A DNA stretch of 64,000 nt, from positions 6,138,001 through 6,202,000 of the forward strand of contig OZ024761.1 of assembly GCA_964016885.1 (NCBI GenBank), given 5' to 3'. This DNA comes from Eledone cirrhosa. Its lineage: Eukaryota. The notes below the pieces were generated by a model that saw only the letters and a program-made list of their open reading frames with translations, ran no database searches and had not been told where the DNA came from. The position numbers were made by a program, and so were the translations under genes. This document shows, in pieces, positions 47,464 through 60,107 of this stretch (its first letter is position 1; each line of letters opens with the position of its first letter).

Positions 47464-47551
47464 TATATATATATATATTTATTAAAATAACAGATTAAGC
47501 AAAGAATCGCTTCTTTCACCCTTAACGGAATCTTGGGAAACTATTATTATT

Positions 47552-47940
47552 TTGGCAGTATCGGTAGAGGGTGTGACACCATGCTTTGACGCATCGAGTT
47601 ACGGCCCTTTATGATCTGAGTTCAAATCCCGCTGAGGTTAACTTTGCCTTTCATCCTTACGGGGTCGATAAAATGAAGCACCAGTAATGTACTAGGGTCG
47701 ATTTAATCGTGTGCCTATATAAGAAATCATAATTTTGGCAGTATCGGTAGAGGGTCTGACGCCATGCTTTGACGCATAGAGTTACGGCCCTTGCCATTCT
47801 GAGTTCAAATCCAGCCGAGGTTAACTTTGCCTTTCATCCTTACGGGGTCGATAAAATGAAGTACCAGTAATACACTAGATTTCATTTAATCGACTTCCCC
47901 TCTCCCAAAATTACTCGCCTTGTGCCTATATAAGAAACCA
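47552..47940 (+). mobile_element. Two tandem main-family SINEs
   Basis: ttggcagtatcggtagaggg..gagttcaaatcc..tgtgcctatataagaaa twice. Confidence 0.88.
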
Positions 47941-58781: not shown

Positions 58782-58838
<57 letters not shown>

Positions 58839-58896
58839 GTGAGGTTTTTTTTACAAAATGAAAAATAACCGAGGTGTCCTACACGAGTGGAAGTAT

Positions 58897-59188
58897 AAAG
58901 AAAAAGGGATGAAATCGAAAATGCAACTGAAGTCTTATTTTTTAAAAAAATATATATATTTATTTGGTTCCTTTACCGGTTTCGCAGTTCTTCTGCTTTT
59001 CAAAAGGTGAGTTCAGATGGAGGGTCTGTGGTTTTTCTCACATGATGTGAGAAAAACCGCAGACCCTCCATCTCAACTCAGCTTTTGAAAAGCAGAAGAA
59101 CTGCGAAACCGGTAAAGGAACCAAATAAATATATATATTTTAAAAAAAAATAAGACTTCAGTTGCATTTTCGATTTCATCCCTTTTTC

Positions 59189-59190
<2 letters not shown>
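58897..59190. ncRNA. Fold-back element with two U3-A8 HHRs (58970-59007 minus; 59082-59117 plus)
   Basis: cctt TTGAAAA gcag-aagaa-ctgc GAA ACCGGT A aagg; centre ctcacatgatgtgag. Confidence 0.75.
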
Positions 59191-59267
<77 letters not shown>

Positions 59268-59329
59268 ATATATATATGTATATATATATGTATATATGAA
59301 AAGTGTAATTTTCTACACAAAACGAAGGT

Positions 59330-59932
59330 TATAGAGAAAATTGAGCTTGGTAATGGCACATGTAATATATAAGAGACAGAATACTTTTTTGTGAAAAAAC
59401 ATATAATTTTATAAGGCAAGGAAATAATAAAGGGTATAGAAAATGACCGGTTTCGATGGGTCTGCAAAAGCCATCTTTTCAAATGTTGATTAATATTAAG
59501 AAAAATTAATAATACGAAGAGTTAAAATTTGAGATTTGAAAATTCAAGTATAAAATTCATTGTGGGATTTCATTGTAGTTTTCATCTAGGTAGCAACATG
59601 TTGACTGCTGTGTCCCTTTCTGAAAGGGACACAGTGTCCCTACCAGAAAGGGACACTGTCAACATGTTGCTACCTAGATGAAAACTACAATGAAATCCCA
59701 CAATGAATTTTATACTTGAATTTTCAAATCTCAAATTTTAACTCTTCGTATTATTAATTTTTCTTAATATTAATCAACATTTGAAAAGATGGCTTTTGCA
59801 GACCCATCGAAACCGGTCATTTTTTATACCCTTTATTATTTCCTTACCTTATAAAATTATATGTTTTTTCACAAAAAAGTATTCTGTCTCTTATATATTC
59901 CATGTGCCATTACCAACCTCAATTTTCTCTAT
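59330..59932. ncRNA. Fold-back element with two U3-A8 HHRs (59440-59487 minus; 59776-59823 plus)
   Basis: aacat TTGAAAA gatgg-cttttgcagac-ccatc GAA ACCGGT C atttt; ~290-bp arms. Confidence 0.72.
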
Positions 59933-60107
59933 ATGTATATATATATATATATATATATTGTTATATATATATGTATATATATATATATATATATACATAT
60001 ACACAAACTAGACAAAGTCAGATATATATAAATATATATGTTTTTGGCAACCATTCACGATGTGGCTCAATAACGAAATCAAATGATTCTATGGACATAC
60101 TTTATTG

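What the first reader, a model, noticed from the sequence alone, without database searches (positions are those of the whole stretch)
58897..59932. Recurrent U3-A8 core variant (UUGAAAA) in distinct hammerhead families
Seen: two adjacent elements with unrelated stem II sequences both read TTGAAAA-stem II-GAAACCGGT(A/C); a decayed third example is on the minus strand at 1440-1472. Established: C3 and G8 form a tertiary Watson-Crick pair in the active HHR, so U3-A8 is the expected compensatory swap. Inference: a lineage of variant ribozymes that CUGANGA-based searches miss, with a perfectly palindromic ACCGGT stem III suited to dimer cleavage.
Basis: partly seen in the sequence, partly recalled or inferred. 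Interest (0 to 1): 0.72.

Follow-up and report, generated by a model that had tools for sequence, protein, structure and literature searches.

The report
Penelope retrotransposon ends with U3-A8 hammerheads
The two hairpins are cut-short, head-to-head ends of two related Penelope-like jumping genes, each carrying a hammerhead (self-cutting RNA) motif whose core C-G pair is swapped to U-A; the swap is real and present in over 23,000 copies in this genome, but it was published in 2011 and 2014, and cutting here is only predicted.

Summary
Each element is a fold-back (arms 95% and 99% complementary) with the UUGAAAA-stem II-GAAACCGGUH motif on both strands, set in (TA)n. Both are 3' ends (pLTRs) of Neptune/Nematis-type Penelope-like elements. 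Full-length relatives carry RT plus a C-terminal GIY-YIG endonuclease between two same-sense motifs 4.7 kb apart.

Genome counts with the ACCGGT stem III: U3-A8 23,298 (control 49), C3-A8 196, U3-G8 182, C3-G8 105. With any short stem III, C3-G8 (114,530) outnumbers U3-A8 (35,484). Mismatched cores number 11,006 against about 61,000 expected. The window's two families share one lineage (RT 54-60% identical). U3-A8 also occurs in a Hydra-type element and a tandem array.

It is not new: natural U3-A8 (Perreault 2011) and U3-A8 in Penelope pLTR hammerheads (Cervera 2014) are in print, and this scan reported it before in this genome and others. The window copies are predicted to be inert, buried in their own hairpin. 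Cleavage is untested. Family B is predicted to misfold; family A folds well but is predicted to form a U3-A17 pair over the cut site. None of 16 long copies begins at the cut site.

The parts
58832..58893 (-). Family A 3' tail (about 60 nt beyond the pLTR end), on the left arm only; joins (TA)n
   Evidence: tail on exactly one arm in 14 of 15 family A head-to-head pairings
58894..59043 (-). Family A left arm: 5'-truncated 3' end (pLTR piece) of a Penelope-like element
   Evidence: same sequence follows the RT/GIY-YIG ORF in L032, L155, L156
58974..59003 (-). Minimal type I hammerhead motif, U3-A8 core, stem I 4 bp, stem II 4 bp, ACCGGU stem III, A17; predicted cut after 58974
59045..59194 (+). 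Family A right arm (no tail), ends in TA run
59085..59114 (+). Hammerhead motif, U3-A8; stem I cut to 3 bp by a C-to-G change that recurs in 14 of 87 arms; predicted cut after 59114
59195..59296 (.). (TA)n-rich microsatellite between the two insertions (shared target)
59297..59329 (-). Family B 3' tail (about 33 nt), on the left arm only
59330..59605 (-). Family B left arm (pLTR piece)
   Evidence: follows the RT/GIY-YIG ORF in L063, L042, L060
59445..59482 (-). Hammerhead motif, U3-A8, stem I 2 bp, stem II 5 bp with 11-nt loop, ACCGGU, C17
59606..59657 (.). Rearranged centre of fold-back B with a small internal hairpin and duplication (likely template-switch scar)
   Evidence: scar is inference
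59658..59933 (+). Family B right arm (no tail), ends in TA run
59781..59818 (+). Hammerhead motif, U3-A8, C17; predicted cut after 59818
1379..1640 (.). Older, decayed fold-back of a related family in (TA)n; motif at 1470-1442 (-); partner arm at 1549-1566 (+) lacks the GAAACCGGT half
   Evidence: relation to family A read by eye from the 3' ends (no blastn match to A)

Best explanation
Both hairpins are short, head-to-head 3' ends of two related Penelope-like retrotransposon families inserted in a TA microsatellite, and each end carries a minimal hammerhead motif with a U3-A8 core that likely cuts the parent element's RNA only slowly and only as a pair. Shown: the motif lies 1.0-1.5 kb after the GIY-YIG stop codon on the coding strand. 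Full-length copies have two same-sense motifs about 4.7 kb apart around the ORFs. Both arms of a hairpin come from one template, and only one arm has the tail. Inferred: the endonuclease nicks (TA)n; reverse transcription starts 80-150 nt downstream of the motif, stops early and folds back to make the mirror arm. In the parent transcript the two motifs would pair through ACCGGU to build two active sites, with U3-A8 replacing the C3-G8 tertiary pair. The hairpin copies in this window are predicted to be dead by-products, because a read-through RNA zips into a 150- or 276-bp duplex that hides the motif.
For: RT and GIY-YIG domains in linked ORFs. Motif on the coding strand after the endonuclease stop in 25 of 30 endonuclease loci, 23 of them at 1,022-1,468 nt. 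Direct-repeat motifs around the ORFs in L155 (108 and 4820) and L156 (4681 and 9370, plus an inverted one). Family B: L063, L042, L060, L044. One-tail rule: 14 of 15 family A pairings and 14 of 14 family B locus pairs, 11 distinct insertions. Arms agree at a 34%-minor-allele site in 19 of 20 pairs, where about 9 discordant pairs would be expected from two templates. All 13 core positions are kept across 19 hand-picked family representatives, 10 U-A and 9 C-G, while N7, N17 and the stems vary. Mismatched cores 11,006 against about 61,000 expected. The family A double hammerhead is within 1.4 kcal/mol of the dimer minimum, P(trans stem III) 1.00. Read-through P(stem II) is below 1e-17. Same anatomy in PMC4209133 and PMC8557442.
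Against: No cleavage assay. Family B's double hammerhead is 16 kcal/mol above a misfolded state; D, T and F are 9-13 above, and stem I is only 2 bp in B, D and T. Family A is predicted to form U3-A17 over the cut site (P 0.59), the analogue of the inhibitory C3-G17 pair (PMC3884650). None of 16 mappable long copies begins at the cut site, and 5 run through it. Every 3' end seen lies downstream of the cut, so the copied RNA was uncut or re-ligated. Copy counts are not independent events. The reversed controls are imperfect: the control for C3-G8 with ACCGGT (157) exceeds the count (105). Cervera 2014 found only low activity for such motifs even as dimers.
Confidence: 0.72

Rival explanations
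1. The motif is kept as a folded RNA signal (a dimerisation or RT-binding element) and rarely or never cuts. U3 with A17 locks the cut site, so the RNA stays whole for copying.
For: U3-A17 predicted at P 0.59 in family A and 0.26 in the Hydra-type motif. A17 in 8 of 10 U3-A8 representatives. All 3' ends lie downstream of the cut and no 5' end lies at it, 0 of 16. Poor predicted folds for B, D, T and F. Cervera 2014 allow 'functions other than self-cleavage'.
Against: Keeping every catalytic core position and the 3-8 pairing is what selection for chemistry predicts. A circular, re-ligated template explains the copy ends equally well. A17 is also common in C3-G8 families (5 of 9). Arms come from one template, so no sign of two-RNA delivery.
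Confidence: 0.2
2. The hairpins are MITE-like fold-back DNA elements that spread as hairpins, and the motif is incidental.
For: Near-perfect terminal inverted repeats in TA sites; many copies are hairpins.
Against: Centre length varies from copy to copy; many copies are single arms; the tail is on one arm only; arms continue into RT/GIY-YIG ORFs.
Confidence: 0.04
3. The motif is a chance AT-rich match amplified by one repeat family.
For: One family dominates the counts. One chance family (inside a zinc-knuckle ORF) does match a related pattern.
Against: Unrelated stems II all pair, and U3-A8 appears with three different stem III sequences in Neptune/Nematis-type, Hydra-type and non-coding elements. 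The A3/G3-C8/U8 class is at background, 90 against control 205.
Confidence: 0.02

Closest known systems
Minimal type I hammerheads in pLTRs of metazoan Penelope-like elements, including the U3-A8 variant of Schistosoma mansoni Cercyon (Cervera and de la Pena 2014, PMC4209133; parts 1-2 of 4 read; supplements not seen)
   Same: U3-A8 core; palindromic 15.2-16.2/loop 3; short stem I; G10.1-C11.1 in A and B; tandem motifs a few kb apart around an RT ORF; opposite-strand pairs 100-700 bp apart; mostly truncated copies
   Different: Stem II is 4-5 bp, not 7-8. No extra nucleotide between A9 and 10.1 in A and B. Stem III is ACCGGU (2-nt insert, as in the fly, rotifer and shrimp type). Host elements are Neptune/Nematis-type. 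About 23,000 copies against about 1,300.
Natural U3-A8 hammerhead core variants (Perreault et al. 2011, PMC3088659; passages)
   Same: Same compensatory swap, stated there to occur in several natural ribozymes and to have been shown active in vitro earlier
   Different: The motifs here have a minimal stem III and no evident loop 1-loop 2 contact, so activity cannot be carried over.
Neptune/Nematis C-terminal-endonuclease Penelope-like elements (Craig et al. 2021, PMC8557442; passages)
   Same: RT then GIY-YIG; GxKF, DKG, CX4CxxC linker, CCHH; partial tandems; inverted 5'-truncated copy; tail at one end; (TA)n targets
   Different: The family A tail is about 60-70 nt (30-40 in the paper). Family A has an out-of-frame N-terminal ORF. 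Neptune against Nematis was not resolved.
Metazoan non-LTR retrozymes (PMC7229834, passages; bioRxiv 10.64898/2026.07.22.740005, part 1 of 5)
   Same: Type I hammerheads in repeats, in the same genome, one array with U3-A8 (L144)
   Different: The window's elements are truncated ends of coding elements, not tandem non-coding monomers.

Membership tests
Minimal type I hammerhead of PLE pLTRs | Core N3-UGA-N-N8-A ... GAAA ... UH in order, with Watson-Crick 3-8 pair | tested here: met
   (U3-A8)
Minimal type I hammerhead of PLE pLTRs | Stem II that pairs with unrelated sequences across families | tested here: met
   4-5 bp in 8 of 10 U3-A8 representatives; 2 bp in the two old copies
Minimal type I hammerhead of PLE pLTRs | Stem I flanking the cut site | tested here: inconclusive
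   4 bp in A (3 in the window's right arm), only 2 bp in B, D and T; a 2-bp helix I has precedent in D. virilis
Minimal type I hammerhead of PLE pLTRs | Palindromic stem III allowing a double-hammerhead dimer | tested here: met
   ACCGGU duplex -8.3 kcal/mol; dimer fold favourable for A only
Minimal type I hammerhead of PLE pLTRs | Site-specific self-cleavage | not testable with these tools
   needs an in vitro assay or RNA end mapping
Rfam hammerhead families | Score above gathering threshold | tested here: not met
   0 hits at gathering; no hammerhead family among 39 hits to E 10
EN+ Penelope-like element, Neptune/Nematis type | RT followed by C-terminal GIY-YIG endonuclease | tested here: met
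   L155 ORF: RVT_1 E 1.3e-6 (28.7 bits, just under the 29.6 cut-off; L032 30.6 passes) and GIY-YIG above cut-off; family B L063
EN+ Penelope-like element, Neptune/Nematis type | GxKF and DKG motifs, CX2-5CxxC linker, CCHH in the endonuclease | tested here: met
   read in the translations: SKGLKF, ADKGS, CGRSNCGTC, IKCKGC plus two His
EN+ Penelope-like element, Neptune/Nematis type | pLTR partial tandems, inverted truncated copy, one-sided tail, (TA)n target | tested here: met
Neptune versus Nematis clade | Placement in an RT phylogeny with reference elements | not tested
   no reference sequences were fetched
Hydra clade PLE (for families A and B) | DKT motif, CxCX5C linker, no CCHH | tested here: not met
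   A and B have DKG, CX4CxxC and CCHH; the separate family in L146/L147 does show CxCX5C
Naiad PLE | N-terminal endonuclease, DKA motif | tested here: not met
   endonuclease is C-terminal
Non-LTR retrozyme | Non-coding tandem monomers of a few hundred bases | tested here: not met
   A and B continue into RT/EN ORFs

The most novel reading that the evidence does not exclude
The U3-A8 swap in this lineage, combined with A17, makes a self-braked hammerhead: U3 pairs with A17 over the cut site just as C3 would with G17. The most successful Penelope family in this genome would then carry a ribozyme tuned down, or turned into an RNA dimerisation signal, so that its template stays whole. That would bear directly on the open question of what hammerheads do for Penelope elements.
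Probability: 0.15. Interest if true: 0.55.

Novelty: new member of a known kind. Interest (0 to 1): 0.2.

Why it matters
As a class it is known, so it matters little for discovery. Two uses remain. First, a search on CUGANGA alone would miss about a fifth to a quarter of this genome's hammerhead-like motifs (35,484 U3-A8 against 114,530 C3-G8 pattern matches, before subtracting controls of 5,273 and 6,067). Second, a young, very abundant family with intact RT/endonuclease frames, a well-folding U3-A8 motif and a predicted U3-A17 brake is a convenient test case for whether Penelope hammerheads need to cut.

Tried and rejected
(1) A C3-A8 'family' (11 of the first 100 rows) as a counter-example: the 4 fetched copies lie inside a zinc-knuckle coding frame, a chance match. 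(2) A propagated U3-G8 wobble subfamily in family D (about 38 of the first 100 rows, by eye): the 20 copies fetched do not cluster, 14 changes against 16.1 shuffled, 80 of 500 as low. The tree is poorly resolved. (3) Two RNA templates per hairpin: rejected, arms agree in 19 of 20 pairs. (4) Fossil cut marks (lead from e1-8643110): 0 of 16 mappable 5' ends at the cut, of 20 loci fetched. The sample is small and limited to long copies. (5) Other Watson-Crick pairs at 3-8 with ACCGGT: background, 90 against control 205. (6) Rfam: only hairpin-driven miRNA models below threshold. (8) No relative in metagenome contigs. (9) The odds ratio of 69 within the ACCGGT class is not relied on, because the C3-G8 count is below its control and mostly one family without a clean stem II. 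(10) Lunse et al. (PMC5785218) and Przybilski and Hammann (PMC1986816) are not held; only their titles were seen in reference lists, so measured rates for U3-A8 and for PLE dimers are not cited. (11) The host was not identified; 'octopus' was a recalled guess, untested, and returned nothing specific.

Full report
1. Observation. The window is G000:C22:6138001-6202000 of a 3.0-Gb animal genome rich in microsatellites. The finding covers two fold-backs in a (TA)n array: A, arms 58894-59043 and 59045-59194 (95%), and B, arms 59330-59605 and 59658-59933 (99%). A descriptor scan allowing any base at 3 and 8 found the motif four times: 59085+ and 59003- (stem II GCAG/CTGC, A17), 59781+ and 59482- (stem II GATGG/CCATC, C17). 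It also found one unrelated weak C3-G8 match at 21462 without a palindrome. A pattern with no stem requirement adds 1470-. The motif points outwards from the centre of each hairpin, and each left arm has an extra tail (about 58832-58893; 59297-59329). Rfam gives nothing at gathering threshold and no hammerhead family down to E 10.

2. What the elements are. DNA searches of the own genome returned dispersed copies of both (56 and 51 matches among 40 scored candidates each). Longer family A copies run into an RT (L032, Pfam RVT_1) and a GIY-YIG endonuclease (L031). The endonuclease search had 24,151 first-look candidates, and the 150 scored were 95-100% identical. In 25 of 30 endonuclease loci the motif follows the stop codon on the same strand within the 1.5 kb held, 23 of them at 1,022-1,468 nt. 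L155 shows a whole unit: motif at 108, ORF 288-1517, a 775-aa RT/endonuclease frame 1430-3754, motif at 4820. L156 has the same plus an inverted end. Family B behaves alike: L063 has RT and endonuclease frames with the motif downstream and an inverted end upstream, and L044 has the pLTR running into the ORF start. The proteins show GxKF, DKG, a CX4CxxC linker and CCHH, which by the passages of Craig et al. 2021 (PMC8557442) means Neptune/Nematis type, not Hydra or Naiad. I did not resolve Neptune against Nematis. Families A, B and a third (T, L104) are 54-63% identical in protein, so the window's 'distinct families' share one lineage.

3. How the hairpins arise. By regular expression, the tail lies on exactly one arm in 14 of 15 family A pairings (the exception is a non-adjacent pairing) and in 14 of 14 family B locus pairs, 11 distinct insertions. 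At a site with a 34% minor allele the two arms agree in 19 of 20 pairs (left out: two pairs with an unreadable site, one duplicate of the window, one non-adjacent pairing), against about 9 discordant pairs expected for two templates. One template folded back is therefore the inference. Inverted truncated copies and one-sided tails are described for PLEs.

4. Covariation. With N{9,24}GAAACCGGTH: U3-A8 23,298 (control 49), C3-A8 196 (21), U3-G8 182 (30), C3-G8 105 (157), purine-3/pyrimidine-8 90 (205). With any 0-2-nt insert in stem III: C3-G8 114,530 (6,067), U3-A8 35,484 (5,273), all four classes 161,020 (36,785). That leaves 11,006 mismatched cores, against about 61,000 expected if 3 and 8 were independent. 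Copies are not independent, and the controls are uneven. The listed mismatched rows (first 100 of each) are mostly single mutants of U3-A8 families. One apparent C3-A8 family is a chance match in a zinc-knuckle ORF, and the U3-G8 excess in family D is not a clade. A hand-picked set of 19 family representatives has 10 U-A, 9 C-G and none mismatched, with N7, N17 and the stems free. This set is not an unbiased sample. By eye, L107/L108 (C3-G8) and L104+825 (U3-A8) share upstream flanks, which looks like a switch between sister families. U3-A8 also occurs with ACGUACGU downstream of a CxCX5C (Hydra-type) endonuclease (L146, L147; only a 27% match over 73 aa to family A) and in a 316-bp tandem array (L144). 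So the swap probably arose more than once.

5. Function. For family A with its majority 4-bp stem I, the double hammerhead is 1.4 kcal/mol above the dimer minimum. The difference is a U3-A17 pair (P 0.59) that extends stem I over the cut site. A C3-G17 pair is the proposed reason why G17 blocks minimal hammerheads (PMC3884650, part 1 of 5). Carrying this over to U3-A17 is my inference; one search found no paper with those terms in the held library. The window's right A arm (gap 6.1) and family B (gap 16.2) are predicted to misfold; D, T and F have gaps of 9-13 kcal/mol, and C3-G8 families 1.8-11.8. Any transcript across either window hairpin buries the motif (P(stem II) below 1e-17). Of 20 long family A copies fetched, 16 had a mappable 5' end: none at the cut site, 11 downstream, 5 upstream of it. 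The 3' ends of the inverted arms in that set lie at +79 or +148. The copied RNA was thus uncut or re-ligated; the data cannot tell which. I put slow dimer cleavage in parent transcripts first, and a non-cutting signal second.

6. Comparison with what is known. Cervera and de la Pena 2014 (PMC4209133; parts 1-2 of 4 read) report U3-A8 in Cercyon pLTR hammerheads (about 1,300 hits), palindromic helix III, opposite-strand pairs and low dimer activity. Perreault et al. 2011 (PMC3088659; passages) report natural U3-A8 and cite earlier in vitro activity. A review (PMC6765202; passages) summarises dimer cleavage of PLE hammerheads. Lunse et al. and Przybilski and Hammann were not held. Searches for a report on this host group or this exact motif found none, but the library is partial and supplements were not seen. 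Earlier reports of this scan describe the same swap in this genome and in others.

7. Verdict. Real, conserved and covarying, but a new member of a published kind; the copies in the window are likely inert by-products of insertion. Interest 0.2.

Noticed in passing
L155 288-1517 and 1430-3754; L156; L157; L198-L214: Family A has an N-terminal ORF overlapping the RT frame in the -1 frame, with a U UUU UUA heptamer in the overlap. The junction is the same in all 13 full junctions printed and in those, and no open frame above 842 aa was among 150 copies. One family B copy (L044) reads through in frame. Possibly a programmed frameshift; untested.
   Followed up: partly
window 59077-59093; family A arms: The U3-A8/A7 core makes a quasi-palindrome with stem II. 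A C-to-G change in stem I that improves it occurs in 14 of 87 arms on several haplotype backgrounds, possibly template-switch mutagenesis. The sample is biased by my query, which carries the change.
   Followed up: partly
family D, L158-L177: A8-to-G changes look several times commoner than U3-to-C in this family (about 38 against 5 of the first 100 rows, by eye) yet do not form a clade. Unexplained; a mutational hotspot or RNA editing.
   Followed up: partly
G000 genome-wide: About 114,500 canonical minimal-hammerhead pattern matches (control about 6,100), with stem III palindromes ACGT, ACTAGT, ACGCGT and ACATGT, a very common non-palindromic ACAGT family, and 310-bp tandem arrays.
   Followed up: no
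L144 (G000:C1:6519946-6521556): Six 316-bp tandem units with a U3-A8 hammerhead and a 4-bp stem III closed by a 3-nt loop, which could work as a monomer; retrozyme-like.
   Followed up: partly
L146 2414 (-), L147 2066 (-), L145 4450 (+): Hydra-type PLE family with U3-A8 and an 8-nt palindromic stem III.
   Followed up: partly
L012 about 1200-1330: Fold-back of another U3-A8 family in which both arms read GCAA for GAAA; a relative (L112) has GAAA, so probably a copy mutation made before the fold-back.
   Followed up: partly
L035 (G000:C3:29455335-29458610): An independent locus with the same neighbour pattern, a family A hairpin next to a family B hairpin in TA runs, with different flanks: shared target preference rather than a composite element.
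   Followed up: partly
window 18614-18989, 25819-26178, 47549-47892: Dimers of a 183-196-bp dispersed repeat; SINE-like by recall, not tested.
   Followed up: no
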